Part shown: positions 3,491 to 35,237 of the stretch, piece by piece
Numbering within the stretch: position 1 is the first letter of the stretch
How the letters are laid out: the number at the start of each line of letters is the position of its first letter
Origin: a virus
Lineage: Duplodnaviria > Caudoviricetes
Reading direction: 5' to 3' (one strand)
IMG/VR virus record: IMGVR_UViG_3300021411_000017
Span: 1-35,237 of that record
DNA: 35,237 nucleotides
Translations under genes and position numbers: made by a program
The notes under the pieces: model-generated
The model's database searches: none
What the model was told of the DNA's origin: nothing
Seen by the model: the letters and a program-made list of their open reading frames with translations, nothing else

Positions 3491-3507
3491 TGTCCGGATT
3501 ACGGACA
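3491..3507. promoter_or_regulatory. 17-bp palindromic site, copy 1 (TGTCCGGATTACGGACA)
   Basis: Intergenic, 40 bp upstream of the -35 box; four further copies in the window. Confidence 0.8.
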
Positions 3508-3547
3508 CGGTAAGTCAAACGGAAATTGCTTGTCGGTCAAACACCTA

Positions 3548-3575
3548 TTGACATTCGGGCCGATTGTGTTATAAT
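3548..3575 (+). promoter_or_regulatory. Consensus sigma70/sigmaA promoter with extended -10
   Basis: TTGACA at 3548-3553, 16-nt spacer ending TGTGT, TATAAT at 3570-3575, in an intergenic gap. Confidence 0.9.
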
Positions 3576-3683
3576 AGGCAACATTACGGCCGAATCTCAC
3601 AATTACTCGAAAGAGATAAAAATTATAGTGGTCATGAACCTGAACTACTTATCAATCCGCATACTAAGAAAGGAGGTGAAAAA

Positions 3684-4025
3684 ATGAAAACTGAACAAGT
3701 CCCCGTTAGTTACCGTGATCAGGAGGCTAAAAAGAACGTTCCTTTGGGAACTGTCGAAGTAAGTATTCCTGAATCAATCGAAGAGGCTCAACAGCTGTAC
3801 GGTGAAGGCGACGTTGATAAAGGAACTGAGCTGCTATTAGAGTATGCTACCACAGCATATACTATCGAGAAGCAGCGCCTTTACCGTGACGCCAACCGTC
3901 CTGACAAGCCTCAGGCTGCCGTCAACTTGTCGAAGTTCAAACAGCTCTCGCCAGAGAAGCAGAGAGAGTTGCTTGTAGCGGCAGGTATTATCAACGCTAC
4001 TGACAGTCAACAAGCTGCTTCCTAA
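3684..4025 (+). CDS. Hypothetical protein, first gene of the promoter's transcript (113 aa, start revised from 3564)
   Basis: AAGGAGGTG SD just upstream of ATG 3684; the track's TTG start at 3564 lies inside the promoter. Confidence 0.8.
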   Translation: MKTEQVPVSYRDQEAKKNVPLGTVEVSIPESIEEAQQLYGEGDVDKGTELLLEYATTAYTIEKQRLYRDANRPDKPQAAVNLSKFKQLSPEKQRELLVAAGIINATDSQQAAS

Positions 4026-4035
4026 TAAGGGGAGT

Positions 4036-4089
4036 AGTGGAGGATGGATGGAGATAGTGGTCACAAGCTGCTATCTCCTCCATTTCACT
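4036..4089 (+). other. Long intergenic RNA stem-loop
   Basis: GGAGATAG 4050-4057 pairs with CTATCTCC 4071-4078, extended by ATGGA/TCCAT and AGTG/CACT. Confidence 0.6.
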
Positions 4090-4090
4090 T

Positions 4091-4285
4091 ATGGAAGAAA
4101 TTGTAGAATTTGAAGATGTCACTTCTATAAACGATACTCCCCTAGCTTTATGTTGTTTTATAGAAGGTAAGAATGTCTGGATTCCTAAAAGCCAAATCCA
4201 TACTGACTCAGAAGTCTACCGTAAGAACCAATCTGGTAAGCTTATAATCTCTCGTTGGATCGCTGAACAAAAGGGGCTTGTATGA
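4091..4285 (+). CDS. Small phage protein with a WIPKSQ motif
   Basis: VWIPKSQI...LIISRWIAEQKGL, a recurring small beta-rich phage protein pattern. Confidence 0.7.
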   Translation: MEEIVEFEDVTSINDTPLALCCFIEGKNVWIPKSQIHTDSEVYRKNQSGKLIISRWIAEQKGLV

Positions 4286-4446
4286 GTAAGGTTGATCAAG
4301 AAATTCAAAAGTCCCTAAGGATTGTTATCCCCTTAGAGTTGTATGCTCAAGTAAAATTAGCATGTCCTGAGCATGGCCAAATTAGCCAATTAGTCCGAGC
4401 TTTGCTAATCAAGCACTTCTTACAACTTGCTGATACTACTGAATAG
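4282..4446 (+). CDS. Ribbon-helix-helix (CopG/Arc-like) DNA-binding protein, 54 aa, not in the ORF track
   Basis: MSKVDQEIQKSLRIVIPLELYAQVKLACPEHGQISQLVRALLIKHFLQLADTTE: beta strand, helix, G-x-x-S turn, helix; ATGA overlap; fills the gap. Confidence 0.65.
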   Translation: MSKVDQEIQKSLRIVIPLELYAQVKLACPEHGQISQLVRALLIKHFLQLADTTE

Positions 4447-4454
4447 GAAAATTT

Positions 4455-4787
4455 ATGGGCTTAGGTCCTCAAAAATCGTCATTACTCAATAAGTTAGGAA
4501 AGTTACAAGCATGGGAGATGAGTGTAGAAGAGCTACAAAAGATAGTAGCAGACAACCAACAAAAGAGAACAATCGACCGCTCAATGAGCAGAGCAGCGAA
4601 ACTGATGAGCTCATCAACTACGTCTTCAAAACGCTCCAAAGCAAGGAGCAAAGAGCTTCAATCCAACAAGCCATTGAAGAAGCTAGAAGATTGCGGGCTG
4701 TCCGTCGAGATAGTGAAGAGTCTTAGAGCTACCGGCAAGCAAGACTTTCAAATAATTTTAGAATTACAAGCTGCAGGATTATTGTAG
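4455..4787 (+). CDS. Hypothetical basic protein
   Basis: ATG with AGGA upstream; tiles with neighbours. Confidence 0.6.
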   Translation: MGLGPQKSSLLNKLGKLQAWEMSVEELQKIVADNQQKRTIDRSMSRAAKLMSSSTTSSKRSKARSKELQSNKPLKKLEDCGLSVEIVKSLRATGKQDFQIILELQAAGLL

Positions 4788-4788
4788 C

Positions 4789-5058
4789 ATGAATGTAACT
4801 CAATTAGAAGCCTTGTTAAAACAAGGTGGCTCGTTATCACATGAGATGATAGTCTCTAGCTCTCCATTAGCTGTCAACCAACTATGGCTAGATAATGTCA
4901 CTCCACGTCGTATCTTCAAAATCATTAAACTAGAACTACAAACTCTCATCGTAGCTGAAGGCTGGCAAACAAACACTACTAGTTACGACATCAGGCTCAT
5001 CAACCGCTACTTGTTCGAAGAGGACATAGCACAAGGAGAACTAGTAATATGGAAATAG
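4789..5058 (+). CDS. Hypothetical protein
   Basis: Tiles between neighbours. Confidence 0.6.
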   Translation: MNVTQLEALLKQGGSLSHEMIVSSSPLAVNQLWLDNVTPRRIFKIIKLELQTLIVAEGWQTNTTSYDIRLINRYLFEEDIAQGELVIWK

Positions 5059-6134
5059 TAGAAGAACCATTAGCTACTGAACAGATAGTATCTAAAGGTA
5101 CTAAGCAAGTTGTTGCTGAGTTAGTCCAGAGGCAAGACATAGACTTCATGAATATGGTTGTCTTAGACGCTCACTTATTAAAAACTTATAGAGCTTGTGA
5201 GCAGAAATTCAACTATTTTGAGGAGCATCATGTTATAGGTAAAGGAGTGAAAGCAGCTCCAGGCTTTGGTATCTCCATGCACGCCGGCATAGAGCATTAT
5301 CGTAAAGCTAAAATGGAAGGCAAGAACTTTGATCAGGCTTTAATAATAGGAGCCGGCCACTTATTAAAGGCATATAAGGATAACATGCCTAAAGAGGCGC
5401 AGTCAGAAGTCTTACAAGATGATAAGAGATCATTAGATAACGCGCTCAGGATATATGAAGGCTATTGTAAGCACTACGAGCCAATGGGCTATAAGTTCCA
5501 TTATGTCGAGGTGCCATTCGCTATGTATCTAGGTAAGATTAGGAGTTGGAAGTATATAGATCTAGGTAATGGCGTGGTATCTATGGACGTTACTCAAGTA
5601 GTGGAGCGTGAACTTGTCTATGTAGGTATTATTGACGCCGTTTTAGAGATGCACAACGCTCTCTATGTTAATGATCTCAAAACTACAGCCTGGTCTATTA
5701 GTGAGTCATGGCTAGAAGGTTTTAGAATGGATCAAGGCTTGTGTGGCTATACTGTCGCTGCTAAAGAGATTCTAGGAGTTGACACCCAACATGCTTTAGT
5801 ACATGGTATCTGGGTTCAAAAAGAAGCTAAAACTACAAGAGGTAAGCCACTAGATGAGTATTTCCAGAGTAAGGAGATACACTGGGATCAAGGCTTGATA
5901 GATGAATGGCACAGAAACACTATCATGACTGCTGAGAGAATAGAGAGAAGTAGATTGATGCAGGAATGGCAGATGGACTGGGGCCAGAACTGTGGAGCTT
6001 TTGGTGGCTGTGAATATAGACCACTATGTTCCGCTCCTCCTAAATTCAGACGTCATATGATAGAAGTAGAGTACCAACGAGCTATCTGGGCTCCTTTAGA
6101 AGATGAAAGATTACAAAAGATTGAGGGATTATAA
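5049..6134 (+). CDS. PD-(D/E)xK exonuclease, Cas4/RecB-like with Fe-S-type cysteines
   Basis: C...G-x-x-x-H, GIIDAV, VNDLKTT, QGLCGY and C-terminal CGAFGGCEYRPLC. Confidence 0.85.
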   Translation: MEIVEEPLATEQIVSKGTKQVVAELVQRQDIDFMNMVVLDAHLLKTYRACEQKFNYFEEHHVIGKGVKAAPGFGISMHAGIEHYRKAKMEGKNFDQALIIGAGHLLKAYKDNMPKEAQSEVLQDDKRSLDNALRIYEGYCKHYEPMGYKFHYVEVPFAMYLGKIRSWKYIDLGNGVVSMDVTQVVERELVYVGIIDAVLEMHNALYVNDLKTTAWSISESWLEGFRMDQGLCGYTVAAKEILGVDTQHALVHGIWVQKEAKTTRGKPLDEYFQSKEIHWDQGLIDEWHRNTIMTAERIERSRLMQEWQMDWGQNCGAFGGCEYRPLCSAPPKFRRHMIEVEYQRAIWAPLEDERLQKIEGL

Positions 6135-6169
6135 CTTTTAATATCCAAAAGAAAGGAGGTGAAATAGAA

Positions 6170-6454
6170 ATGATAATGATCTTTACTCGTACTGTCCTCC
6201 GTGATCCTAACGACACTAATAAGGCAACTGTCTATGTACGTGTTACTGGTTCCTTTGATGGTTTGGAATGTAAGGTAGGCGATCTAACTTTCCCATCTAC
6301 TCAATCATGGGCTAAATTTTGGGGTGCTGTCCATCATGGTGCCTTGAAGATTCCTGACTTAGAAGTCAAGATGGAGAATGCCTTCGGTGATGCTGTAGAT
6401 AGTGGCAAGGAGGAACAACTTGGAAATCCTGATGCGCCGGGGCTTAAAGTATAA
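6170..6454 (+). CDS. Hypothetical protein
   Basis: AAGGAGGTG SD upstream. Confidence 0.65.
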   Translation: MIMIFTRTVLRDPNDTNKATVYVRVTGSFDGLECKVGDLTFPSTQSWAKFWGAVHHGALKIPDLEVKMENAFGDAVDSGKEEQLGNPDAPGLKV

Positions 6455-6557
6455 TACTTTCCAGCCAGAAGAAACTAAACCAGTAAGTAAGCAGGAGCTT
6501 AACAGGCAGAACTACCAGGAAATACAACAAGCTATAAGAAAGGATAAGGATAAAATT

Positions 6558-7352
6558 ATGCCTTCTTTAAATGACTTCATGGCTCGCGACCCCTTACGAG
6601 CAGCTATCTGGGGTGGTAGCGGTAGTGGAAAGACAACACTAGCAGCATTATTAGCTAATTACGAGCAGTTTAGGCCAATTTACTTCTTTGACTGGGATCG
6701 TCGAATGGGAGCTTTACGTGCTTCTATTCCTCAAGATCTCTGGCAGTATATCTTTGCTGATTCTTATAGTGATAAGCAGCAACAAGGCTCAGCATTTAGT
6801 ATGATGGAAGCTAAACTAGTCTCTATAGAGAAAGAAGGCTACAAAACTATCATACTCGATAGCATGACTTTCATGTTAGAAGGTATAATGGCTCGAGTCA
6901 TGATGCTTGATGGTAATAAGAACTCTGCTACTATGAACCCCCAGTTACAGAACTACCTCTCTCAGCAATCAGCAGTCAAAGCTGTCCTGCAGCGAATGTG
7001 CTCTGCTAATTATAACTTCATCTGTACCTTTCATGAAGGCACTGATAAGGATGAGGTTAGTGGTCGCATCTTCAAGGCATTTAACGTCACAGGTAAGTTA
7101 GTATCAACAGTCCCTGGTTACTTCAATGAGATATGGCATACTGAAGTTAACCAGACAACTCAAGGCGAGAATGAGTTTAGTGTAAGAACTAGAAGTGACT
7201 ATACTTACATGGCCAGAACTACATTTAGATCGTTGAAGTCAACAGAAAAGCAGGGGGACGTATGGCCGAAAGTAATAGCAGAGATCAGCAACCAGCAGGA
7301 GATAGCCAAGCTACCACCACCACACGTACAAGTAGAACCACAAAAACTGTAA
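6558..7352 (+). CDS. AAA_24/Sak4-like P-loop ATPase (probable recombinase)
   Basis: Walker A GGSGSGKT, Walker B IILDS, CTFHE, PGYFNEIW; start revised to ATG 6558 (AAGGA upstream); lies between nuclease and SSB genes. Confidence 0.8.
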   Translation: MPSLNDFMARDPLRAAIWGGSGSGKTTLAALLANYEQFRPIYFFDWDRRMGALRASIPQDLWQYIFADSYSDKQQQGSAFSMMEAKLVSIEKEGYKTIILDSMTFMLEGIMARVMMLDGNKNSATMNPQLQNYLSQQSAVKAVLQRMCSANYNFICTFHEGTDKDEVSGRIFKAFNVTGKLVSTVPGYFNEIWHTEVNQTTQGENEFSVRTRSDYTYMARTTFRSLKSTEKQGDVWPKVIAEISNQQEIAKLPPPHVQVEPQKL

Positions 7353-7522
7353 GGGAAGGAGGAATAATTCTAGACGATAACCATAGTATCCAAATAAAAC
7401 TAAGGTGTAGGATTCATCCAAGAAACACCGGAAAGGAGCTAACAGGTTGTTCATACTGCAATAACTTATACTATTTGTGGCAGTTCGTAAACAGAGGCTC
7501 TATTTTATTAGAACAAAACTAA
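7262..7522 (+). CDS. Small hypothetical zinc-binding protein (true start probably near 7365)
   Basis: CRIH...CSYC motif; AAGGAGG at about 7356-7362 suggests a later, possibly non-ATG, start. Confidence 0.4.
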   Translation: MAESNSRDQQPAGDSQATTTTRTSRTTKTVREGGIILDDNHSIQIKLRCRIHPRNTGKELTGCSYCNNLYYLWQFVNRGSILLEQN

Positions 7523-7546
7523 AATCTGAATAAGGAGATTATTAGT

Positions 7547-8218: not shown

Positions 8219-8461
8219 ATGGATGGGCAACAAAGACAACCAAAGCTAGAAATAAGAGTTGAAAAATGGTGGATAACTACTATCTTAACTCATTCATTAT
8301 GTATTCACGGTGATTTCTATGGGCTACCAGATTTTAAAGATGGAGAATATACTATGGTAGAGATAGAGAGAATAGATATGATTAGAGGTATAGCTGAGAG
8401 CGAAGAAGCCTATATTAAACTAGGTAATCAAATGAGTTTAGATGAGCTAAAGAAAGGATAG
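8219..8461 (+). CDS. Hypothetical protein, paralogue 1 of a tandem pair
   Basis: Aligns with 8528..8725 (RQPKLE.RVE.WW...G.FY.LPD.K.G...AESEEAYIKL). Confidence 0.7.
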   Translation: MDGQQRQPKLEIRVEKWWITTILTHSLCIHGDFYGLPDFKDGEYTMVEIERIDMIRGIAESEEAYIKLGNQMSLDELKKG

Positions 8462-8464
8462 ATA

Positions 8465-8509
8465 ATGGCCTCAACAGCACACCAAGTTCATGATATTACT
8501 AAAAATTAA
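8465..8509 (+). pseudogene. Truncated duplicate of the 5' end of the ParB-MTase gene
   Basis: MASTAHQVHDITKN* versus MASTEQQVHDITKIF at 8786. Confidence 0.75.
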
Positions 8510-8527
8510 TAGAGAGATAAATACATC

Positions 8528-8725
8528 ATGGAAAGACAACCTAAATTAGAGTGTAGAGTAGAGTATTGGTGGGCTAATACTATGATTACAGGCACACTAA
8601 TGCTCTCTGGAAACTTCTATAACCTACCAGATCATAAGAATGGAGCCTTCACTACAATAGAAATTATTAAATTAGATATGATAAATATGGTGGCAGAGTC
8701 AGAAGAAGCTTACATCAAACTATAA
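8528..8725 (+). CDS. Hypothetical protein, paralogue 2 of a tandem pair
   Basis: Clear alignment with 8219..8461. Confidence 0.7.
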   Translation: MERQPKLECRVEYWWANTMITGTLMLSGNFYNLPDHKNGAFTTIEIIKLDMINMVAESEEAYIKL

Positions 8726-8785
8726 TGGATATAGAAAAATGCTTAAAAGATAAGTAAAAGTAAAAAAGGGGGAGGGTTAAAGTTA

Positions 8786-10195
8786 ATGGCTTCAACAGAG
8801 CAGCAAGTACATGATATTACTAAGATCTTTATTCCACCAGACAGGCAAAGGACTAAGGTTAGTGAAGGTAAAATCAGTTCGTTAGCAGTGAGTATACAGA
8901 CAAAAGGGCTGTTGAATCCTATAGTTGTAGCCCCACTTGATCGTGTCCGGTTTCCGGACGCAGCCAAGCATTTAGACGTACAGCTAGTTGCTGGCTACCG
9001 ACGCTACTTATCTTTTGCATTACTCAAGAAGCTTCAAATTCCAGTCAATTTTAGGGATGATATAACTGATAGAGTTTTGCTGGAAGAGATTGAACTAGAC
9101 GAGAATCTTGAACGTGAGGAACTTAGCTGGCAAGATGAAATTCGTGCTAAGGCTCGTCTAGTAGAGCTACGAAAAGAAAATTACGGCGAGGGAATACGAG
9201 AAGTAGCTGAGAAGATTGGTGAGTCTAGAGGTGAGTTATGGGAAGACGCTAATCTCGCCAAAGCTATGACTGTTTTACCTGAACTTGGAGAGGCTAAAAA
9301 CAAAAGTGCTGCTAAGTCTAAATTGCGCTTATTAAACCAACGTGCTACTCTCATGGTCAAAGCTCAGGAGTATCAGGTAGGTACTCGCACTATCAATCCT
9401 GACATTTCTAAATACATATTTCTAGGTGATTGCCTGGAGACTATCAGAAGCTGGGAGTCTGCTTCTATTGATTGCGTCGTTACTGATCCTCCTTATGGCA
9501 TAAACCTAGATGTCGGCCAAACTAAACGTGACTCCCATCATCCAGTTATCTATAGTGATAACACTTATGATATCATGGATCTTACTACCTTAGTAATCAA
9601 AGAAGCTTATCGCTTGTTAAAAGACAATACCCACGCTTACTTCTTCTTCGATATCAAAGCCTACCCCAAGATCATAAGGATGCTCACCGATGCAGGATTC
9701 ACTGTCGAGCCTATGCCCCTTATTTGGACCAAGCCTGGACCAGGTCAAACTAATCATCCTGAAAGTCGGTGGGGATCTGGCTATGAAACCTGTTTTTTCT
9801 GCCGTAAAGGTACTCGTCCCCTTCTTAAACAAGGACAATCGAACGTACTTCCTCACGATCCGGTGCCGGCAGCTCAAAAGATCCATCCAGTTGAAAAACC
9901 AGTTTCGCTTATTCGACAACTCATTGAAAGTTCTACTGCACCAGGAGAGGTGGTTGTTGACTTTTTTGGAGGATCTGGCTCCACTGCTGAAGCAGCTCTC
10001 CAGCTCAATAGAAATTTCCGCATCTGCGAGAAAGACCCGGCCTTCCATGCGGGTATTGTCGAACGTCTACAAAAGTTCTCTAACAAGGATAGTAATATTG
10101 AACCTGGAAGGCAAGATAGTAACGGACACTCTATAAATCTAAAAGAAACTATCAAATCTAAGTTCGATCCACTAGCTGGAGAAGAGGAGGACTAA
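8786..10195 (+). CDS. ParB-like domain + HTH + beta-class N6A/N4C DNA methyltransferase fusion
   Basis: ParB motifs GLLNPIVV, LVAGYRR, ENLEREEL; HTH GIREVAEKIGESRGELWE; MTase motifs VTDPPY, HPVEKP, DFFGGSGST in beta-class order. Confidence 0.9.
   Translation: MASTEQQVHDITKIFIPPDRQRTKVSEGKISSLAVSIQTKGLLNPIVVAPLDRVRFPDAAKHLDVQLVAGYRRYLSFALLKKLQIPVNFRDDITDRVLLEEIELDENLEREELSWQDEIRAKARLVELRKENYGEGIREVAEKIGESRGELWEDANLAKAMTVLPELGEAKNKSAAKSKLRLLNQRATLMVKAQEYQVGTRTINPDISKYIFLGDCLETIRSWESASIDCVVTDPPYGINLDVGQTKRDSHHPVIYSDNTYDIMDLTTLVIKEAYRLLKDNTHAYFFFDIKAYPKIIRMLTDAGFTVEPMPLIWTKPGPGQTNHPESRWGSGYETCFFCRKGTRPLLKQGQSNVLPHDPVPAAQKIHPVEKPVSLIRQLIESSTAPGEVVVDFFGGSGSTAEAALQLNRNFRICEKDPAFHAGIVERLQKFSNKDSNIEPGRQDSNGHSINLKETIKSKFDPLAGEEED
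8944..8960. promoter_or_regulatory. 17-bp palindromic site, copy 2 (TGTCCGGTTTCCGGACG)
   Basis: Inside the ParB-domain coding sequence. Confidence 0.75.
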
Positions 10196-10539
10196 TGGCT
10201 AACGAATCTAAAAATAGTAAAGAAGAAATAAGAGAGATAGCACTTGAAATAACTAAAAATTTAACCGCAGAAGGTAAGCTAATAGAGGGCGGCTTCATGG
10301 CTTTCAAAATTATTGTAATGCCTCCGAACGTACCAGATTATCAAGTACGTGATATGAGGCTAGCCTTCTTTGCTGGCGCTGAACATCTATTCTCTAGCAT
10401 ACTGGCTATAATGGATAGTGATAGAGAACCTACAGCAGCAGATGAAAAAAAGATGGATCTAATCAACGCGGAGCTCGCGAAGTTTAGAGCTGATATGGCT
10501 ATGCTATTTGCAGCTTCTTCAAAATCAGGTCAAGCTTAA
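10195..10539 (+). CDS. Hypothetical phage protein
   Basis: TAATG coupling, GGAGG SD, Q...MRLAFFAGA motif recurrent in phages. Confidence 0.7.
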   Translation: MANESKNSKEEIREIALEITKNLTAEGKLIEGGFMAFKIIVMPPNVPDYQVRDMRLAFFAGAEHLFSSILAIMDSDREPTAADEKKMDLINAELAKFRADMAMLFAASSKSGQA

Positions 10540-10598
10540 TAGTTAATAGTTAATAATTAATAATTAATAGTTAATAATTAATAATTAATAGTTAATAT
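10536..10598. repeat. Tandem array of nine TTAATA(G/A/T) heptamers
   Basis: Units start at 10536, 10543, ... 10592; last bases G,G,A,A,G,A,A,G,T. Confidence 0.95.
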
Positions 10599-10599
10599 T

Positions 10600-13194
10600 A
10601 TGAGTGAAATTCAATTACCTCAAGAAAACCTCTACAAGATACAATGTCCTGCTACTTTAATACAAGGTAGTCAGATAATGTTTGTAGGAGAAGCACCAGG
10701 AAGTAATGAGCTTATCTGGCATGTCTGTAATAGTTGCGGTAATGGTGCTCCTTATCCTGGTCTATGTAGAGTTAAGTTCTGTAGAGGATCCTTAGTTTTC
10801 AAGCCTCAAGGTTTTGTTGGCGCTTCTGGTGCTATGTTAAGGAGAGCTTGCCAGCATGCTAAGATCAATTTCGATGCTTGCTCAAGAAATAATGTAGTTA
10901 AGAGAAAACCAGGAGGAGAAGACTTTGGAAGTTTCTATCACGACCCAAAGGAGCGGAAGCGACCAACACAGGAGTTGCAGTGGTGGAGAAACCGCCTTTG
11001 CGATGAGATTAATAGCTACAGGCCTAATGTTGTTGTGGCTAATGGTAACGAGGCGCTTAAAGCTCTATGTCCTTCGTTAGCAGGCATTACTACGTGGCAA
11101 GGTAGTATTTTGATTAGTGAAGTTATTAAAGATCTTAAAGTTATTCCGATGCTACATCCTTCTTTTATAATGAGAGACAACTGGCAGTATTACTATGTAA
11201 TGTCCAGACAGATGAAAAGGATAGCTGTAGAAGCGCAAGGTAGAGAGATTATACAAAAGGAGCCATTAGATGAATTCTGCATCGCTCCCACCATCAAACA
11301 AGTTCTATCGTTTCTCACTGTTATTGGAGCATCGAGACAAGAATGGTACTTGGATATCGAGACAGTTGGCGATTCAATCAGATGCTTCGGCCTCTATTCT
11401 GCAGCAGTACCAAATTTCGCAATGTGCGTCCCGCTTCAGAAAACTTCTGGCCCAGCATGGAGTGTGGTGGATGAAGCATCTATCTGGCGAGAGCTCTCAC
11501 TCACTTTTAGGGACAATCCACACTTTGCAAATCAGAACTGTGTCTATGACTTGGACTACTTACTCGATTTCGGATGCGAGCCATCTAATATTGAGTTCGA
11601 TTCAATGCAAGGAACACAAGTAGCTTATCCTGAGTATCCTAAGAAGTTAGAATTTACAACTATGTTATACACCTTCTACCCCTATTATAAAGATGAGGGG
11701 CAGACATGGAAGAAAAAGGAGCCAGATGATAAAGTCTTTACTTACAACTGCAAGGACATGGTGGCTACGGCTAAAGTCAGTAAAGCACTCAAAGAAGACA
11801 TTAACAGTGCAGGACTGGCAGATGTCTATGAACGTAGAGTTAGGCGATTTTATCCCATTGCAATGGAAATGCAGAGAAATAGACTGCGTCTTGATAGACA
11901 TTGGCACGACAGGCTTAAGGATCTCCTCGTTTTGGAGCGAGACAAACAGCAGTCAAATCTGGACAAACTCATTGGATACCCAATCAATGTCAAATCAAGA
12001 GATCAAGTTGCTAAACTCCTTTTTACAGAACTACGGCTTCCAGCTAAAAAGAAGCGAGGATCTCAAAATATCACTACTGATGAAAATGCCTTGAGAGAGT
12101 TACGAGCCGCGCATCCTAGTGTTGAGGCTTTGAACAAGATATTAGAGATCAGGCATTTAAGGACTAAGAAAAGTAACTTTATAGATGTGGAGTTTGATAA
12201 TGCTAGCAACTGTGGCAGTGGTGATGGAGAGTCTTATCTTGGCTATACTGTGGGTATTAGCAGTGCGAAGACTGGTCGGTGGGCTTTTGGTAGTTCAACT
12301 AAATGGCGAGGTTCATCTCCACAGACCGTATCCAAAGTTATGCGTCTGCAATATGCGCCTCCTATCGTGGATGGCAAGTCATATGTGTTCTGGCAAAGAG
12401 ACTTATCGCAAGCTGAAGCTAGAATTGTGGCTTGGTTGTCTAATTGTAGGTTTCTTCTCGATGTTTTTAATAGTCCTATCAAGATTCATAAAGTGGTAGG
12501 AGGTAGGATATACAAAAAAGATCCTCTAAAGATAGAGTCAGATAGCATGGAGTATGATATCAGTAAGAGGATTGTCCATGCCTATAACTATATGACTCAG
12601 TGGAAGAAGATAGCGACAGTAGCTAATCTACCCTACGATTTTGCGAGACAGGCCTATGAAGCTTATAGCAAGGAAGTTCCAGAGATTGGTCAGTGGTGGA
12701 GAAAGACAGGAAAAGAAGCGACAGAAAAAGGTAGACTCACTACTCCTTTCGGTAGAGTTAGGCAATGTTTTAGCGCTTGCTCAGCTGTGGCGGCTACTGG
12801 TACTTTGCCAGACGATATTCTTAGAGACTTGGTAAGCTACGTTCCACAAGCTACTGTTCCTGATTTGCTAAACGAAGCAATGTGGAAAGTCTGGAATGAG
12901 AATGATTGGGTAAGGTGGCATCAACAAGGGCATGACAGCTACTTGGCAAGTGGGCCAGCTAATAGGACGTTAGAGTTCTATGACAAGACACAAGAAGCTC
13001 ATAATATTAGTTTTCTACTTAATGGTCACGACTGTCATATACCAAGTGAAATGCAGTGGGGCTATCTCTGGGGTGCAATGCTAGAGTATAAAATAGGCGA
13101 AGATACTAGCTATGCAGCCTGGCAAGATAGAGCAACTAAAGAAGGTTTTTTCGAGGAAAGTAAGATTATCAAGAAGTTATACCAAATGAACTAG
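10600..13194 (+). CDS. polA: Family A DNA polymerase with N-terminal uracil-DNA glycosylase-like domain and 3'-5' exonuclease
   Basis: UDG motifs GEAPG, FVGASG, LHPS; exonuclease LDIET, NCVYD, YNCKD; polymerase TGR, DLSQAEAR (A), KRIVHAYNY (B), QGHDS (C). Confidence 0.92.
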   Translation: MSEIQLPQENLYKIQCPATLIQGSQIMFVGEAPGSNELIWHVCNSCGNGAPYPGLCRVKFCRGSLVFKPQGFVGASGAMLRRACQHAKINFDACSRNNVVKRKPGGEDFGSFYHDPKERKRPTQELQWWRNRLCDEINSYRPNVVVANGNEALKALCPSLAGITTWQGSILISEVIKDLKVIPMLHPSFIMRDNWQYYYVMSRQMKRIAVEAQGREIIQKEPLDEFCIAPTIKQVLSFLTVIGASRQEWYLDIETVGDSIRCFGLYSAAVPNFAMCVPLQKTSGPAWSVVDEASIWRELSLTFRDNPHFANQNCVYDLDYLLDFGCEPSNIEFDSMQGTQVAYPEYPKKLEFTTMLYTFYPYYKDEGQTWKKKEPDDKVFTYNCKDMVATAKVSKALKEDINSAGLADVYERRVRRFYPIAMEMQRNRLRLDRHWHDRLKDLLVLERDKQQSNLDKLIGYPINVKSRDQVAKLLFTELRLPAKKKRGSQNITTDENALRELRAAHPSVEALNKILEIRHLRTKKSNFIDVEFDNASNCGSGDGESYLGYTVGISSAKTGRWAFGSSTKWRGSSPQTVSKVMRLQYAPPIVDGKSYVFWQRDLSQAEARIVAWLSNCRFLLDVFNSPIKIHKVVGGRIYKKDPLKIESDSMEYDISKRIVHAYNYMTQWKKIATVANLPYDFARQAYEAYSKEVPEIGQWWRKTGKEATEKGRLTTPFGRVRQCFSACSAVAATGTLPDDILRDLVSYVPQATVPDLLNEAMWKVWNENDWVRWHQQGHDSYLASGPANRTLEFYDKTQEAHNISFLLNGHDCHIPSEMQWGYLWGAMLEYKIGEDTSYAAWQDRATKEGFFEESKIIKKLYQMN

Positions 13195-15118: not shown

Positions 15119-15250
15119 ATGACTCCTATTATGGTTGATGCCTTAATTAGTGTAGTATTAGGAGTCGCAATAATAGTAACAATAGTTGCTGGATGGCGCG
15201 TAGTAATGTTAATAATTAACAACTATCAAAATAGGAGAAAATGGCAATGA
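15119..15250 (+). CDS. Single-pass membrane peptide, 43 aa, not in the ORF track
   Basis: MTPIMVDALISVVLGVAIIVTIVAGWRVVMLIINNYQNRRKWQ; AAGGAG SD; hydrophobic helix with basic tail. Confidence 0.6.
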   Translation: MTPIMVDALISVVLGVAIIVTIVAGWRVVMLIINNYQNRRKWQ

Positions 15251-15747
15251 GAAACGATGAGTTTGATAAGATGGTTACTGGATTTAGGAGCCAACAAGAC
15301 AATCTTATTCTCAGGAAAGGGCATGACTATACAACAGGTCATGGTACTGAGGATAGGCTATATAACTTCAAATGGGTGGGCGAGATGCTAGATATTAGCC
15401 CATTGAAGGTAGCAGGTATCTACTGGTTAAAGCATGTCTTAGCTATCACTACTTACATCAAGTATGGTGGAGTGTTGAGTGACGAGAGTATTGATAGTAG
15501 ATTGCTAGACGAGAGTAACTATAACTTATTAATAACAGCCATTATAGATGAAGCTAGATGTAATGCTACGGAGGGGCCAGCAGCTAGAGCACTAAGAGAA
15601 GTAAGAGAATATAATGATCCGCAACAAGTACGCCACGGTCATCCTGTCCGTAATCCGGACAAACGAGCAGATACAGACAAAGGAGGCATGCCTAAAAATC
15701 CTGAAATGCCAAATCCTTATGATAATCTAATACGTGGTAGAGAATAA
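15241..15747 (+). CDS. Nucleotide-modification-associated domain 1 (Nmad1/DUF1599-like) all-alpha protein, possible dNTP pyrophosphatase
   Basis: KGHDY...DRLYNF...LKH...ESIDSRLLDESNY motif series. Confidence 0.65.
   Translation: MAMRNDEFDKMVTGFRSQQDNLILRKGHDYTTGHGTEDRLYNFKWVGEMLDISPLKVAGIYWLKHVLAITTYIKYGGVLSDESIDSRLLDESNYNLLITAIIDEARCNATEGPAARALREVREYNDPQQVRHGHPVRNPDKRADTDKGGMPKNPEMPNPYDNLIRGRE
15645..15661. promoter_or_regulatory. 17-bp palindromic site, copy 3 (TGTCCGTAATCCGGACA)
   Basis: Exact reverse complement of copy 1; identity extends to 20 bp. Confidence 0.8.
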
Positions 15748-23348: not shown

Positions 23349-23365
23349 TGTCCGGATTCCGGACA
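23349..23365. promoter_or_regulatory. 17-bp palindromic site, copy 4 (TGTCCGGATTCCGGACA)
   Basis: Intergenic between tail and ejection modules; near-perfect palindrome. Confidence 0.8.
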
Positions 23366-26123: not shown

Positions 26124-26128
26124 TTTAT

Positions 26129-30763: not shown

Positions 30764-30778
30764 TTTTCTCCTTTATCT

Positions 30779-30816: not shown

Positions 30817-30862
30817 TTAGACGGATGCATGGATCAGCTAGCTTTGCAATATTCCTTGCCTA

Positions 30863-31051: not shown

Positions 31052-31077
31052 AATTATATTCCTCCTTTCTTGTTAAG

Positions 31078-31251: not shown

Positions 31252-31260
31252 AGGTAATCC

Positions 31261-31617
31261 TTACCAACCAACAGCTTCTGCATAGAGCGTTTGAGCAGCG
31301 ACAGTTACGCCAGTCAATTCAGCAGAGACACCAGTAACGGCATCATCTACCCAGGCACGTAACTTCTTGTTTGCGAAGTCATACCGCCATAGAATAGTAA
31401 CAGCAGAGCCACTATCAAGTAGGACTAGGTATTCGAGCTCGCGCTTCATCCCAAACTTAGGATAAGTAGGGAGAGGCACGCCAAGGGCAGGATAAGTTAA
31501 AGCGCCATCACCAAACTGAATCTTGACCGTATTACGTAAGATAGCACCAGGCGAGGCGCGAATGAGACGATTCTTGACGACAGTAATAGTAACATCACCA
31601 ACAGCGATTCCAGCCAT
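31261..31617 (-). CDS. Capsid decoration/minor virion protein
   Basis: Y...GVP...YDFANKKLRAW...AEL pattern; position after the capsid gene. Confidence 0.6.
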   Translation of the reverse strand: MAGIAVGDVTITVVKNRLIRASPGAILRNTVKIQFGDGALTYPALGVPLPTYPKFGMKRELEYLVLLDSGSAVTILWRYDFANKKLRAWVDDAVTGVSAELTGVTVAAQTLYAEAVGW

Positions 31618-31662
31618 TTTGCATTCTCCGCATGGGCATTTTGGCTACCCATTAGTTAAGGA

Positions 31663-31765
31663 AGTTGGCGCTCTAGCCTTTTGCAAGGAGCTTCTCATTA
31701 TTATATGAGTTTAGCAAGGATTGGAAAGCTCAGGAGTAGAAAACCAATCCACTAGAGCACAAACT
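31663..31765 (-). ncRNA. Putative structured cis-RNA (three-way junction with loop-loop complementarity)
   Basis: Stems 31668-77/31751-60, 31718-24/31744-50, 31681-84/31714-17, 31694-98/31705-09; GAGCUU/AAGCUC cross-pairing. Confidence 0.5.
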
Positions 31766-31788
31766 GGTTGATTAGTTAACCGTCCTTG

Positions 31789-32307
31789 TTAGTAAAGTAC
31801 AGTCTCCACTTCGCACCATACCTTGGAAGATATGGGCTTGAATCCACCAAACTTTACAACAGCAAAAGGAACGTAAGCACCACCAGCAGTAGTTGCATCG
31901 GTAGACTGCTTAAATTCCAGTATATCGCCAGGAGCAAAGAGGCGATTCACACCGACAAGCTTAGCTACAACGACCTGTCCATTATCAAGATCAACATCGT
32001 TAGCTATTGCAGTGATACCAGCCTTTAGATCATTACCTTTTTTGAGAGTAGTATTGCTACTACCTAAAGTCAATGATTTCAAGACAGCCTCAGTACCACT
32101 AAGTTTGGAATTCTTGATGAGTTGGACGACTGGATCAGCAGTCTGGGCAACAAAATCTTCAGTGATATAGACACCAAAGCCAACAACTTCCATCTCAATG
32201 ACGACTGGGTACTGTTTGATAACACCGTTAGCAGCCTCAGCTTGTAGAGGAGTAAGCTCTAAGCCTAGGACTGTAATTCCAGACATACCATGAGGGATAA
32301 ACATCAT
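31789..32307 (-). CDS. Capsid-associated (cement/decoration) protein
   Basis: Beta-rich, immediately downstream of the major capsid gene. Confidence 0.55.
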   Translation of the reverse strand: MMFIPHGMSGITVLGLELTPLQAEAANGVIKQYPVVIEMEVVGFGVYITEDFVAQTADPVVQLIKNSKLSGTEAVLKSLTLGSSNTTLKKGNDLKAGITAIANDVDLDNGQVVVAKLVGVNRLFAPGDILEFKQSTDATTAGGAYVPFAVVKFGGFKPISSKVWCEVETVLY

Positions 32308-32326
32308 GAGCTAATCCTAGCCTTTC

Positions 32327-33298
32327 TTAAGCAGAGGTAAAACGGATAATATGCTCTTCGGTATCAGCAGTGAAATCCCACGGCTTTTTGAAACCCAAGA
32401 TAGCATACCAAGCTAGACCTTTATCGCGGCCATATTTGACTGCGAGCTTGTATCTAAGCTCTTCTTTAAGAGCTACGCCTTCGATTATAGAGTCATCACC
32501 AATTAACAGAGCCTCGCCAATGGTGTTAGTACCTTTAGCGTTGGAGAGGGTGTTAGGATTATCAGTGACGAGGAAGCGACAACCATAGCAGGTCTCTTCC
32601 ATGATCTCACCATTAAAGAGTTTGCGAGGATGCGCATATTTAGCAGCATCTTGAAACTCAGGATCATCAAAAAGACCGCGTTTTGCCTTGACTGACATAA
32701 TCACTACGTACTTATCATCTGGGAATTTCGGTAGGATTTTGCCAGTATTGCCAGAACCATAGAGTCCAGTTTCAGCAGCGTCAACCATTTCCTTAAGGTG
32801 AAAGTAGTTGAAATTGCTAGTAGCGGTGGTGGAAGCAGTTCCATCAACGTCCCAGACGCCTACACCAGTACCAGTAGCGATATAGCATAGCTTAGAGGTT
32901 TTCATCTCAGTAGCTACAGCTTCATCTAGGACCTGTTTCTGGTCGTTCATGATAACTTTTTGGACTGGTTGAGAAGGAGCAAACTCAGATAGAGCCTCCA
33001 ATTTACCAGTCCAAGGGATAGAATTACCCCACTCAGTGACAGTGAGACTGTCACGCACAATCGAGAATTTAGTCTCAGGAATGTCCTGAAACTCGCCAAT
33101 TTGACCGCCCTTAGTCTCAGCCATAGACACTTTATCGAAGTCTACGGAATCACCACGACCCTTACCATAGCCAGGCTCTACCCGCGTAAATTGGCGGAAG
33201 ATGTAACGGCTAGTGTTAACGTATCGTAGTTTTGAGCTAAGAGAGGGATTGGCAAAGTGGCCACCGTCAGCAGAGATGGCCCAATTTTGCCCAGGCAT
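32327..33298 (-). CDS. Major capsid protein (N4-gp56/P22-like HK97 fold)
   Basis: FRQF...GKGRGDSVDF, TVTEWGN, LFNGEI...GCRF, YGRDKGLAWY; follows the scaffold gene. Confidence 0.88.
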   Translation of the reverse strand: MPGQNWAISADGGHFANPSLSSKLRYVNTSRYIFRQFTRVEPGYGKGRGDSVDFDKVSMAETKGGQIGEFQDIPETKFSIVRDSLTVTEWGNSIPWTGKLEALSEFAPSQPVQKVIMNDQKQVLDEAVATEMKTSKLCYIATGTGVGVWDVDGTASTTATSNFNYFHLKEMVDAAETGLYGSGNTGKILPKFPDDKYVVIMSVKAKRGLFDDPEFQDAAKYAHPRKLFNGEIMEETCYGCRFLVTDNPNTLSNAKGTNTIGEALLIGDDSIIEGVALKEELRYKLAVKYGRDKGLAWYAILGFKKPWDFTADTEEHIIRFTSA

Positions 33299-33341
33299 AG
33301 ATTTCTAACCTTCTCTTTCTTACTTACTTTCTTTCCTATGA

Positions 33342-34130
33342 CTACTTAGTAGGAATACCAAAGCGAGACATCTGATCATCTTGACGCTCTTTGATGTAAG
33401 CAGCCAGTTCAGCTTCTCCTGGATCTTGAGCGATTACAGGAGTCATTGGTGGTTGACCGCCTTGAGTGTTATAACCAGGCCCGCGTGGTTGTTCTACATA
33501 GTCGCCAGAGTTTGGTGGCTGATTAGCGTTTCCTCCATTTGCAGCACGAACATTCATCAAGTAGTTACGAGTGAGCTGAGCTGCATCAGCTAGCCGGTTA
33601 GCGTAATTTTTAGAAGGATCAGTCTCACGCATGAAAGCAGAAACGACTTTCTCATGCGGAACGAGGTCAGGGTTGGCTCTCTTGAATTCATTTACAACCA
33701 TGGCGTTACCGACTACCTGCTCGACACCTTGAATTATTCGTTGAGTGAGTTGTTGCTCACGTTGCTCGAGAATTCTTTGAGGGTTAGTTAACCACTCAGT
33801 TGTGTCGATAGAGTTGTCGGCGCCGCGGCCGTAAGCGTCTCCATAAGAAGAGCCACGATTAGGCTGACCTACAGGAACATGGCCACCTTGATTATTCATA
33901 GGAGTTGCCATAGCTTGCTCCATTATACGAGTCAAGCGAGCTACGTCTTCCCTAGTAGCATGGAAGGCTTGTTCCATACCTAAGATGCCATGTTCGACTG
34001 CTTCTTCTACAGAATCATACTTACCAGCTATTTTACGAGATGGAGGATTATTGCCAACAGGCACCGTGCCGCCATCATTTGCCTGAGGCACAGCGGCTTG
34101 TGGCGTCCCAGGATTGTTACTTTCTGCCAT
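33342..34130 (-). CDS. Capsid scaffolding protein
   Basis: KIAGKYDSVEE motif, disordered plus helical segments, directly upstream of the capsid gene. Confidence 0.7.
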   Translation of the reverse strand: MAESNNPGTPQAAVPQANDGGTVPVGNNPPSRKIAGKYDSVEEAVEHGILGMEQAFHATREDVARLTRIMEQAMATPMNNQGGHVPVGQPNRGSSYGDAYGRGADNSIDTTEWLTNPQRILEQREQQLTQRIIQGVEQVVGNAMVVNEFKRANPDLVPHEKVVSAFMRETDPSKNYANRLADAAQLTRNYLMNVRAANGGNANQPPNSGDYVEQPRGPGYNTQGGQPPMTPVIAQDPGEAELAAYIKERQDDQMSRFGIPTK

Positions 34131-34152
34131 AAATCTAATAACTCCTTTTTAG

Positions 34153-34539
34153 CTATTTGTTAGATGTAGTAGGTTTAGACTGGCCTACAGCAAGCTTATG
34201 GACTTCACCTATAGGCAATTTAGGATCAATTATAGGCAATTTAGGATCAATAGATGGAACAGGAATGTTAGTCTCAATAACAGGCCAGCTCCATTGACCT
34301 TCTTTAGGTCCCATAGCTATATGATTGCACTGCCTAACATGACTATCAGGCACAAAAGTACAGATATCTATACTACCATCTGGATGAACTCTAGTGATTA
34401 TAGCAGCACAGATATCTTTGTAAGGGCCTACATGAATATGATTAACTATACGACCAACAGTAGGCTTGCGAACTTCAGCTATTGGCAATTTAGGGTTAAA
34501 AGGCGGAGTATTGCTAGGTATAGTTGATTGATCAGCCAT
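34153..34539 (-). CDS. Hypothetical phage protein (PTVGRIV...WSWP family) with internal repeats
   Basis: KPTVGRIVNH...AAIITRV...WSWP; three PKLPI motifs. Confidence 0.7.
   Translation of the reverse strand: MADQSTIPSNTPPFNPKLPIAEVRKPTVGRIVNHIHVGPYKDICAAIITRVHPDGSIDICTFVPDSHVRQCNHIAMGPKEGQWSWPVIETNIPVPSIDPKLPIIDPKLPIGEVHKLAVGQSKPTTSNK
34210..34251. repeat. Perfect 21-bp tandem duplication TATAGGCAATTTAGGATCAAT
   Basis: 34210-34230 is identical to 34231-34251; in frame, encodes IDPKLPI twice. Confidence 0.95.
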
Positions 34540-34867
34540 TTTTATTCACCTCCTTTCTTGTTAGGATAGAACCACCACTTACTATTGTTTCTAAGACGTT
34601 AGCAGCTCTAGAACCATCAGCGCGCGCGAGATCTAATTGTTTCTTTATACGCCATACTTCTGTTATCTGAGCACGTAGATCAAGCATAGAAGGGAGATCA
34701 GGAGAGACATGCTCAAAGTGATCGAGGAGAAGAGCCAAACGTCTCTCAATTTTAGGGGCAAGTACATTAGTAACAATAGTAGCTGCATAGCCTATCTCAG
34801 ATTGATCAGCAAGTTTATCAATGGCTTGCAGTCGGTTGTTCTGTGGGGATCGGTTGATGTCTTGCAT
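34532..34867 (-). CDS. Hypothetical helical protein between portal and scaffold genes
   Basis: ORF tiling and position. Confidence 0.65.
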   Translation of the reverse strand: MQDINRSPQNNRLQAIDKLADQSEIGYAATIVTNVLAPKIERRLALLLDHFEHVSPDLPSMLDLRAQITEVWRIKKQLDLARADGSRAANVLETIVSGGSILTRKEVNKNG

Positions 34868-35027
34868 TAGCTACTTTTGCTTTCTTTAAAAGATAATTAA
34901 GCTCGAAGTTTTGTTTTTTTAGTTGAGATACTTGAAGAGTTATATCATCTAAAACACGATAAGATGCATCTAGTTGAGCGCTTAGAACAATAACTTGCTT
35001 AGATAGAGCAACTGCATCGTCAGACAT
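34818..35027 (-). CDS. Small coiled-coil protein
   Basis: Leucine heptads; AAGGTG upstream. Confidence 0.55.
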   Translation of the reverse strand: MSDDAVALSKQVIVLSAQLDASYRVLDDITLQVSQLKKQNFELNYLLKKAKVANARHQPIPTEQPTASH

Positions 35028-35034
35028 AAGATCA

Positions 35035-35237
35035 CTATTTCATAGCACCTTGCGCCATATTCTTATTCATATAAAACTGAATGGCCTGGCGAAGACCATT
35101 CAACATAGCGGGAGGAACAGGCGGTTGTCCTCCTCCTTGTTGCATAGGTGGACCTTGTTGAGGCATTGGAGCAGCCATTTGTCCGGATTGCGGACGCATG
35201 GGAGTGCCTGGCTGTTGAACCTGTCCTCTAGCCATAG
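35035..35237 (-). CDS. C-terminus of a gene truncated by the window edge, probably the portal protein
   Basis: Pro/Gln/Met-rich tail in an open frame reaching the edge; identity inferred from gene order only. Confidence 0.45.
   Translation of the reverse strand, partial: MARGQVQQPGTPMRPQSGQMAAPMPQQGPPMQQGGGQPPVPPAMLNGLRQAIQFYMNKNMAQGAMK
35180..35196. promoter_or_regulatory. 17-bp palindromic site, copy 5 (TGTCCGGATTGCGGACG)
   Basis: Inside the low-complexity tail of the probable portal gene. Confidence 0.75.

What the first reader, a model, noticed from the sequence alone, without database searches (positions are those of the whole stretch)
3491..35196. Five dispersed 17-bp palindromes plus a ParB-HTH-methyltransferase: candidate parS-loaded, sliding DNA methylation system
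Seen: TGTCCGGATTACGGACA (3491), TGTCCGGTTTCCGGACG (8944), TGTCCGTAATCCGGACA (15645, exact reverse complement of the first), TGTCCGGATTCCGGACA (23349) and TGTCCGGATTGCGGACG (35180). They are spaced 5.5, 6.7, 7.7 and 11.8 kb apart across both arms. Three lie inside coding sequence and only one is near a recognisable promoter, which is a poor fit for ordinary operators. One lies inside the ParB domain of 8786..10195. Established: ParB/Spo0J/Noc/KorB proteins bind 13-18 bp palindromes through an HTH and slide as CTP-dependent clamps. Inference: these sites load the ParB-MTase so it spreads and methylates phage DNA in cis, for anti-restriction or self-marking. No ParA is present in the window.
Basis: partly seen in the sequence, partly recalled or inferred. 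Interest (0 to 1): 0.88.

Follow-up and report, generated by a model that had tools for sequence, protein, structure and literature searches.

The report
Phage ParB-methylase with self-encoded docking sites
This phage family keeps a 17-base palindrome every few kilobases, one copy inside the gene for a DNA methylase fused to a ParB-type DNA-binding module, and the palindromes are likely the docking sites from which that enzyme would slide and methylate the phage's own DNA, giving a common but unexplained phage protein a testable target.

Summary
The five palindromes are real (chance 0.23) and belong to a phage family: 12 of 12 capsid-gene relatives carry them, mostly at non-homologous places about 5-7 kb apart. 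One copy sits in a variable loop of the ParB domain. Its codons are nearly fixed (12/13, 15/15, 18/20, 16/18; none of 186 background columns reaches 0.85), it changes symmetrically, and 2 of 4 genes that lost it have a copy at or just before the gene start. Distant phages with the fusion carry other dispersed palindromes (20 of 49, against 1 of 17 ParB-less controls). Site sequence partly tracks the ParB recognition helix, including held-out predictions, with clear exceptions. Binding by the ParB-HTH-methyltransferase is therefore likely (about 0.85). Sliding, nucleotide use and site-directed methylation are untested, and both catalytic CTPase residues are replaced. The main rival reader is a conserved HTH terminase-small-subunit-like protein outside this window. 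ParA was found in none of 30 records. Ten literature searches found no report of such sites, but this scan noted the same idea at least 8 times on other DNA.

The parts
3491..3507 (.). Palindromic site 1, intergenic, 40 bp upstream of a consensus sigma-70 promoter
3548..3575 (+). 12/12 sigma-70-type promoter consensus with extended -10, in front of the conserved replication block (consensus match only)
8786..10195 (+). ParB-HTH-methyltransferase gene, 469 aa, in a conserved exonuclease / Sak4 / ParB-MTase / UDG-PolA / primase-helicase block
8816..9106 (+). ParB N-terminal nucleotide-binding domain (aa 11-107). R22, G70, R72, R73 and N107 are kept; the catalytic Q and E positions are R20 and Y71
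   Evidence: Pfam PF02195 E 1.4e-6; TIGR00180 58.3 bits vs cut-off 58.45; alignment to Noc
8944..8960 (.). Palindromic site 2, inside a variable loop of the ParB domain; conserved in place with nearly fixed synonymous codons
9191..9343 (+). Compact ParB/Noc-type helix-turn-helix and following helix (aa 136-186); predicted reader of the sites
   Evidence: profile matches to Noc, Spo0J and ParB chains; model helices 137-144, 148-163, 173-198
9410..10078 (+). Beta-class N6-adenine/N4-cytosine DNA methyltransferase domain (DPPY before FxGxG); predicted homodimer interface at aa 290-354
   Evidence: PF01555 E 9e-28; Foldseek best hit CcrM 6pbd
15645..15661 (.). Palindromic site 3, in the variable C-terminal part of ORF 15241-15747; inverted copy of site 1 with flank
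23349..23365 (.). Palindromic site 4, intergenic in the structural arm
35180..35196 (.). Palindromic site 5, in a frame open to the contig end, probably the portal protein's C-terminal tail

Best explanation
The five palindromes are likely the binding and loading sites of the phage's own ParB-HTH-methyltransferase dimer, which would close around DNA at a site, slide for kilobases and methylate the phage genome in cis. Shown: the sites, their family-wide conservation with local turnover, the DNA-level constraint on the in-gene copy, the domain layout, and intact methyltransferase motifs. Inferred: the HTH reads the site (about 0.85). The methyltransferase dimer likely replaces ParB's C-terminal dimerisation domain and closes the ring (model only). 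A nucleotide, likely CTP, would shut the N-terminal gate. Loss of the two catalytic residues would make clamps long-lived and far-spreading, as in M. xanthus Q52A and E93A. A site every 3-9 kb would cover the whole 45-kb genome and keep the mark on phage DNA rather than host DNA. The in-gene site would add autoregulation and keep reader and address together during gene exchange. The methylated sequence and the purpose of the mark (partial anti-restriction, or self-marking) are not known.
For: (1) Family: G001 has 8 sites with exact GTCCG-N5-CGGAC arms, G003 7, G002 5, G029 5; 12 of 12 capsid-gene loci carry at least one. (2) In-gene site: of 37 homologous genes covering the loop, 27 keep the exact arms, 5 have both arms changed symmetrically (GCCCG/CGGGC once, ATCCG/CGGAT four times), 1 has a one-off variant, 2 lost it but have a site at the gene start or 202 bp upstream, and 2 lost it with none seen on 1.7-2.8 kb contigs. 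Among 22 genes under 85% nt identity the top codon is CGT 12/13, GTC 15/15, CGG 18/20, CCG 16/18, while the spacer codon is free (TTC 9, TTT 6); 186 background 4/6-fold columns have a median of 0.43 and none reaches 0.85. (3) Other sites turn over between genes, frames and intergenic DNA yet stay evenly spread (G001 CV 0.31, p 0.001; 10 near-complete genomes combined p 4e-6). (4) Dispersed palindromes occur in 20 of 49 distant fusion-bearing phages against 1 of 17 ParB-less MTase phages (Fisher p 0.007), with different sequences in different lineages. (5) Helix code: the base 5 bp from the centre is C when helix residue 148 is R/K (4 of 5 lineages) and T otherwise (12 of 12 records, p 0.002). 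R/K with C occurs in two separate clades of the primase and polymerase trees, one sister to a Q-with-T genome. Held-out genomes predicted to carry TTCA-N5-TGAA gave 8 vs 1.4, 4 vs 0.1 and 3 vs 0.1 (one lineage) and 4 sites with matching flanks (G054). (6) Homodimer model through the MTase domain: score 0.69, best control 0.00, mark reached by 20 of 30 solved pairs and 1 of 23 single chains, runs agree in at least 93% of contacts, pLDDT at least 74; it may rest on likeness to solved MTase dimers. (7) No ParA in 30 records and no tyrosine integrase in 5.
Against: No binding, nucleotide or methylation data exist. 29 of 49 distant fusion-bearing genomes gave no palindrome at the cut-off; two counted hits (G011, G024) are doubtful, and two positive genomes (G072, G074) have a broken ParB frame in the assembly. 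The code has exceptions: G074 and G066 have K148 with T, and G055, G067, G069 and G051 showed no predicted site. Within the family the helix varies (G003 vs window) with no change of site. ParB and primase trees of the first set are congruent, so much co-variation is shared descent, and genomes are not independent. The evenness test is mildly biased by the discovery rule, and G003, G010, G019 and G023 are not significantly even alone. The ParB-less G025 has 11 dispersed palindromes, and an unrelated GC-rich fragment (G004) has 4 exact copies of this motif. Box II reads GYRR in 80 of 100 homologues. The PNAS 2025 screen names no N6N4-MTase fusion among its 11 nucleotide binders (PMC12704722 section 8). 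The family avoids ATCGAT (3 vs 27 expected), TGATCA, CCATGG and AACGTT, so methylation is not blanket protection. The dimer model shows no confident N-terminal gate contact.
Confidence: 0.55

Rival explanations
1. The ParB-MTase binds the sites but acts locally or as a regulator or DNA organiser (KorB-, BisD- or VirB-like control, autoregulation, genome compaction), while methylation is site-independent or limited to the site's surroundings.
For: All evidence for binding applies. One site lies 40 bp upstream of a perfect promoter and one in the gene itself. KorB and BisD slide to regulate transcription (PMC11790492 passages; PMC12409273 abstract). Restriction-site avoidance persists.
Against: Most sites move freely between genes and frames. 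The MTase motifs are invariant in 102 of 102 aligned close homologues (DPPY) and stay fused across the clade.
Confidence: 0.27
2. The sites are read by the conserved HTH terminase-small-subunit-like protein (missing from this contig) and serve packaging.
For: The gene lies next to the terminase large subunit in G001, with weak sigma70-r4/LuxR HTH hits. It is conserved in 11 family loci and has a site in its variable N-terminus in G001, G003, G029 and L333. Homologues occur across the clade.
Against: Its recognition helix changes in L333 with no change of site, differs among G010, G056, G065 and G068 that share one site, and is alike in G010 and G062 that have different sites. No homologue was found in G021, G022, G072, G053, G074, G075 or L396, which have sites (several are incomplete). 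The tightest link is to the parB gene.
Confidence: 0.07
3. The sites are operators of another phage or host protein, such as the unknown conserved ORF 3684-4025, a host regulator, or a winged-helix initiator like those whose iterons share this motif.
For: The same motif forms clustered repeats in many GC-rich prophage loci and is dispersed in G004. G025 shows that dispersed palindromes occur without ParB. ORF 3684-4025 is 62-69% conserved and unassigned.
Against: No DNA-binding fold was assigned to ORF 3684-4025 or 4455-4787, and neither has a homologue in distant site-bearing phages. The wHTH-like ORF 945-1745 is unique to the window. This reading does not explain the in-gene site or the helix code.
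Confidence: 0.08
4. The palindromes act as hairpins in RNA or single-stranded DNA (processing, pausing or priming signals).
For: Each can fold a 6-8 bp stem, and the in-gene changes are compensatory.
Against: Arm sequence, not just complementarity, is held in 53 contexts. The outer T/C asymmetry gives a wobble pair on the coding strand at some sites and a mismatch at others. No U-tract or fixed position relative to genes.
Confidence: 0.03

Closest known systems
Chromosomal ParB-parS and Noc-NBS (PMC7383237 passages; bioRxiv 10.1101/2021.05.05.442810 passages)
   Same: ParB nucleotide domain plus HTH (profile E 7e-18 to Noc, 2e-13 to Spo0J); palindromic site of similar length; helix residue 148 aligns with the specificity residue R173/Q158; Noc too has dispersed sites and no ParA (recalled); a parS inside the parB gene is known in B. 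subtilis (recalled).
   Different: The C-terminal domain is a beta-class DNA methyltransferase; no ParA; 17-bp odd-centred site; catalytic Q and E are replaced; the base that tracks residue 148 lies 5 bp from the centre, which may not match ParB geometry; the host is a phage with no integrase found.
KorB-OB of plasmid RK2 (PMC11790492 passages) and BisD-bisS of ICEclc (PMC12409273 abstract)
   Same: Element-encoded ParB-family CTP clamps that load at the element's own palindromes and act at a distance; BisD carries an extra effector domain and slides about 50 kb.
   Different: They regulate transcription with a partner protein; here the effector is an enzyme that would modify DNA, and sites are spread over the whole genome.
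Phage ParB-N6/N4-methyltransferase fusions (PMC12704722 passages and section 8; BCE_0392 as cited in PMC5512222)
   Same: Same two Pfam domains (PF02195 + PF01555); described as frequent in phages, of unknown function, perhaps anti-defence.
   Different: No DNA site, HTH-based targeting or sliding is reported in the passages read. BCE_0392 is cited as a non-specific nicking enzyme. Two terminase-type fusions with only a weak ParB-domain match and no HTH match (G027, G028) had no dispersed palindrome.
ParB activators of phage thymine dioxygenases (PMC13229309 abstract)
   Same: A phage ParB coupled to a DNA-modifying enzyme.
   Different: Separate proteins, no DNA-binding domain, and NTP-site mutations had no effect, which warns that CTP may not matter here either.

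Membership tests
ParABS partition system | Cognate ParA ATPase | tested here: not met
   PF13614: 0 of 5 and 0 of 25 records, 17 of them at least 90% complete; control rang in 14 of 14
ParABS partition system | parS sites clustered near the origin | tested here: not met
   Sites are spread over the whole genome
ParB-family CTP-gated clamp (ParB/Noc/KorB/BisD) | ParB/Srx nucleotide-binding domain with binding residues (R54, G92, R95, N127 in M. xanthus numbering) | tested here: met
   R22, G70, R73 and N107 are invariant in alignment A1; aligned to Noc
ParB-family CTP-gated clamp (ParB/Noc/KorB/BisD) | Catalytic Q and E for CTP hydrolysis | tested here: not met
   R20 and Y71 in the window; Box II has Y in 80, E in 17, H in 2, G in 1 of 100 homologues
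ParB-family CTP-gated clamp (ParB/Noc/KorB/BisD) | Central HTH | tested here: met
   Profile alignment to Noc through the HTH; model helices; TIGR00180 covers aa 5-151 just under its cut-off
ParB-family CTP-gated clamp (ParB/Noc/KorB/BisD) | C-terminal dimerisation that closes the ring | tested here: inconclusive
   No canonical domain; predicted MTase-MTase interface scores 0.69 vs control 0.00, possibly from likeness to solved dimers
ParB-family CTP-gated clamp (ParB/Noc/KorB/BisD) | Sequence-specific binding to a cognate palindrome | tested here: inconclusive
   Strong comparative support with exceptions; no binding assay
ParB-family CTP-gated clamp (ParB/Noc/KorB/BisD) | NTP binding, clamp closure and sliding | not testable with these tools
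   Needs biochemistry
Beta-class N6A/N4C DNA methyltransferase | DPPY catalytic motif before the FxGxG SAM-binding motif, MTase fold | tested here: met
   DPPY 234-237 and FGGSGS 394-399 conserved; Foldseek CcrM E 4e-15
Beta-class N6A/N4C DNA methyltransferase | Methylation activity and target sequence | not testable with these tools
   k-mer bias did not reveal a target; no methylome at hand
Restriction-modification system | Cognate restriction nuclease next to the MTase | tested here: not met
   Neighbours are small unknown ORFs and UDG-PolA; no restriction family among the 48 window ORFs scanned

The most novel reading that the evidence does not exclude
A self-addressed DNA modification system: a nucleotide-gated sliding clamp whose ring is closed by a methyltransferase dimer, loaded only at the phage's own evenly spaced palindromes (one written into its own gene), made long-lived by loss of the hydrolysis residues, and reprogrammable through a few helix residues. 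It would mark a whole genome in cis by address rather than by target sequence.
Probability: 0.45. Interest if true: 0.9.

Novelty: new variant of a known kind. Interest (0 to 1): 0.75.

Why it matters
ParB-methyltransferase fusions are among the commonest ParB-fold fusions in phages and have no known function (PMC12704722). A defined 17-bp site, a built-in natural mutant series (symmetric in-gene variants, helix-site pairs from other lineages) and a compact 469-aa protein make the question testable with standard binding and methylome assays. If methylation spreads from an address, it is a new way to tell self from non-self DNA, and a possible tool for marking a chosen DNA molecule or domain.

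Tried and rejected
Chance and assembly artefact: rejected. Protein constraint on the RVRFPD loop as the cause of the in-gene site: rejected by fixed synonymous codons, a free spacer codon and peptide changes (F to E, V to I or A) that keep the palindrome. The wHTH-like ORF 945-1745 as reader: no homologue in relatives. Plasmid-prophage partition or integration: no ParA and no tyrosine integrase; serine integrases were not searched. A relative lacking the fusion: none found; all 6 primase-anchored loci had it, and the capsid-anchored fragments do not reach the gene. Host: a GTDB scan with the family-specific MTase pattern found 0 loci. MTase target from k-mer bias: not found. Atlas searches for two conserved unknown ORFs gave no family. 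The polymerase tree did not finish; fast trees were used. Methylation data for Desulfofustis phage MD01: the passages read in PMC9296519 and PMC10370329 give none, and their supplements were not opened. Iyer 2013 (PMC3763556) and Xu 2012 (PMC3256598) are not held, so claims about them are second-hand. G004 (fragment without ParB) and L249 (the window itself) were left out of the counts. L244 and L245 (broken or cut N-terminus) were left out of the codon test.


Full report
OBSERVATION. The five 17-bp palindromes are at the stated coordinates. At up to 2 mismatches there are 5 matches, against a shuffle mean of 0.23 and a maximum of 2; the reversed pattern gives 0. A weight-matrix scan finds no further site. 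The window is a 73%-complete linear virus record with a replication arm (exonuclease, Sak4-like ATPase, ParB-MTase, UDG-PolA, primase-helicase) and a podovirus-like structural arm. Sites 8944, 15645 and 35180 are coding. Site 3491 ends 40 bp before a 12/12 promoter consensus.

THE PROTEIN. ORF 8786-10195 has a ParB N-terminal domain (PF02195), an HTH region that aligns with Noc, Spo0J and ParB chains, and a beta-class N6A/N4C methyltransferase (model pLDDT 87.8). The MTase motifs are invariant among close homologues. The nucleotide-binding residues R22, G70, R73 and N107 are invariant. The positions of the catalytic Q52 and E93 of M. xanthus ParB are R20 and Y71; Box II has Y in 80 and E in 17 of 100 homologues. 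In M. xanthus, Q52A and E93A variants still bind nucleotide, hydrolyse poorly, close rings even without parS, and spread 125-175 kb instead of 33 kb (bioRxiv 10.1101/2021.05.05.442810, passages). A two-copy model pairs through the MTase domain (aa 290-354): score 0.69, best control 0.00, mark reached by 20 of 30 solved pairs and 1 of 23 single chains, run agreement at least 93%, pLDDT at least 74. This may reflect solved MTase dimers, and no confident N-terminal contact is shown. It suggests, by inference, that the MTase replaces ParB's C-terminal dimer domain.

THE FAMILY. Close relatives (protein 58-62% identical) carry the same motif: G001 8 sites with exact arms, G003 7, G002 5 (G002 and G003 are near-identical), G029 5. 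All 12 capsid-anchored loci have at least one. Fifty-three distinct contexts give YGTCCGG-D-W-H-CCGGACR. Outside parB the sites turn over: they lie in variable termini of the portal, TerS-like, Sak4 and other genes, in different frames, or between genes. Spacing is even in G001 (7 of 8 gaps 5.0-7.3 kb, p 0.001) and marginal in the window (p 0.045). Ten near-complete genomes of the wider clade combine to p 4e-6, though only five are significant alone and the discovery rule favours dispersal.

THE IN-GENE SITE. Of 37 homologous genes covering the loop, 27 keep exact arms, 5 change both arms symmetrically, 1 has a one-off variant, 2 lost the site but have one at the gene start or 202 bp upstream, and 2 lost it with none seen on short contigs. 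In 22 genes under 85% nucleotide identity the codons are CGT 12/13, GTC 15/15, CGG 18/20 and CCG 16/18, while the spacer codon is TTC 9 / TTT 6. The 186 background 4/6-fold columns have a median top-codon share of 0.43, none at 0.85 or more. At protein level, 87 of 100 homologues carry a loop peptide that can encode the palindrome. Selection therefore acts on the DNA and is tied to this gene.

THE WIDER CLADE. A de novo scan for dispersed palindromes (simulated nulls never passed log10 p -5; cut-off -6) was positive in 5 of 5 close genomes. It was positive in 8 of 21, 11 of 25 and 1 of 3 distant fusion-bearing genomes, and in 1 of 17 MTase phages without ParB (20/49 vs 1/17, p 0.007; genomes are not independent; G011 and G024 are doubtful; G021 just missed). 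Compact-HTH proteins go with 15-17-bp cores, for example nine TGTCCC-N5-GGGACA-type sites in the metagenome-assembled Desulfofustis phage MD01 (OP947158). Proteins with an insertion in the HTH turn go with longer AT-cored sites. The base 5 bp from the centre is C when helix residue 148 is R/K (4 of 5 lineages) and T otherwise (12 of 12 records, several related). Residue 148 aligns with R173 of ParB and Q158 of Noc, the known specificity position (PMC7383237, passages; alignment), but the geometry may differ. On primase and polymerase trees the R/K-with-C state falls in two separate clades, one sister to G059 (Q with T) (fast trees). Applied to genomes where nothing had been found, the rule recovered TTCA-N5-TGAA sites in G052 (8 vs 1.4 at other spacings), G064 (4 vs 0.1), G009 (3 vs 0.1) and G054 (4 with matching flanks). 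It failed in G055, G067, G069 and G051, and G066 has K148 with T, like G074. G072 and G074 have a broken ParB frame in their assemblies. I tried this code after reading an earlier scan note that mentioned a recognition rule.

RIVAL READERS. The wHTH-like ORF 945-1745 is unique to the window. Two conserved unknown ORFs have no assigned fold and no distant homologues. The serious rival is an HTH-bearing TerS-like gene in the part of the genome missing here. Its helix does not track site sequence, and it was not found in 7 site-bearing records, some incomplete. Dispersed palindromes also occur without ParB (G025), and the exact motif occurs in an unrelated fragment (G004) and as clustered repeats in GC-rich prophage loci. 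Their reading as initiator iterons is recalled, not tested.

MECHANISM. Most likely the dimer binds a site through its two HTHs (about 0.85), closes on a nucleotide, slides, and methylates phage DNA within a few kilobases (0.55 for the whole chain). No ParA was found in 30 records and no tyrosine integrase in 5, so partition is unlikely. The family still avoids several 6-bp palindromes (ATCGAT 3 vs 27 expected), so protection from restriction can only be partial. The main alternative keeps the binding but gives it a regulatory or organising role (0.27).

LITERATURE AND NOVELTY. Ten searches of PMC (CC-licensed) and bioRxiv were run. Four aimed at this system and found no report of DNA sites for ParB-MTase fusions. 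PMC12704722 (passages and section 8) calls such fusions frequent and of unknown function, and names none among its 11 NTP binders; its supplements were not read and may show whether one was tested. I saw PMC12409273 and PMC13229309 as abstracts, and PMC11790492, PMC5512222, PMC9296519 and PMC10370329 as passages. It works like ParB-parS, Noc-NBS, KorB-OB or BisD-bisS but is not a ParABS system. This scan has noted the same idea at least 8 times on other genomes (unchecked notes, not used as support); no look-alike of this sequence was in the index. New here are the codon-level proof of constraint on an in-gene site, its symmetric variants and relocations, and a helix-site rule tested on held-out genomes.

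VERDICT. Observation confirmed; interpretation partly supported; new variant of a known kind; interest 0.75.

Noticed in passing
window 3479-3507 and 15645-15673: Sites 1 and 3 are inverted copies including 12 nt of flank (29 nt, 90%), suggesting that sites are copied to new places together with their flanks.
   Followed up: no
window 8219-8823: A tandem duplication of about 320 bp: ORFs 8219-8461 and 8528-8725 are paralogues, and 8460-8502 repeats the start of the ParB-MTase gene (86%), leaving a short stub.
   Followed up: no
window 10536-10598: AT-only heptamer array (TTAATAA/TTAATAG) just before the polymerase gene; possible unwinding element.
   Followed up: no
window 10600-13194: Family A DNA polymerase with an N-terminal family-4 uracil-DNA-glycosylase-like domain; the polymerase is conserved across the clade.
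   Followed up: partly
G001:15747-16436 (L134), absent from the window: Conserved HTH-bearing TerS-like gene with a site in its variable N-terminus in four relatives; a paralogue of window ORF 3564-4025 lies beside it.
   Followed up: partly
L013, L014, L017, L024 and many others: The same motif occurs as clusters of 3-5 near-copies in GC-rich prophage loci, probably origin iterons inside an initiator gene (recalled reading).
   Followed up: no
G004 (L142) 237, 2874, 8679, 10446: An unrelated 65%-GC phage fragment with four exact copies of the motif and no ParB seen in 14 kb.
   Followed up: partly
G025: A ParB-less phage with 11 dispersed TTGACG-N4-CGTCAA palindromes, one near its MTase gene; reader unknown.
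   Followed up: no
L382 (OP947158.1) 249-42993: Desulfofustis phage MD01 has nine dispersed TGTCCC-N5-GGGACA-type sites and a ParB-HTH-MTase at 10342-11634; a named record with a predicted host.
   Followed up: partly
L229 705-2309: The ParB loop carries an insertion of about 90 residues right after the palindrome codons, showing that the loop tolerates large changes while the site is kept.
   Followed up: no
G060: TTCA/TGAA palindromes with a 6-bp spacer (6 copies) as well as a 5-bp spacer (2 copies): a possible shift in dimer spacing.
   Followed up: no
G000, G001, G003, G029 combined: Strong avoidance of ATCGAT, TGATCA, CCATGG, AGATCT, AACGTT and TTCGAA, a fingerprint of host restriction systems.
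   Followed up: no
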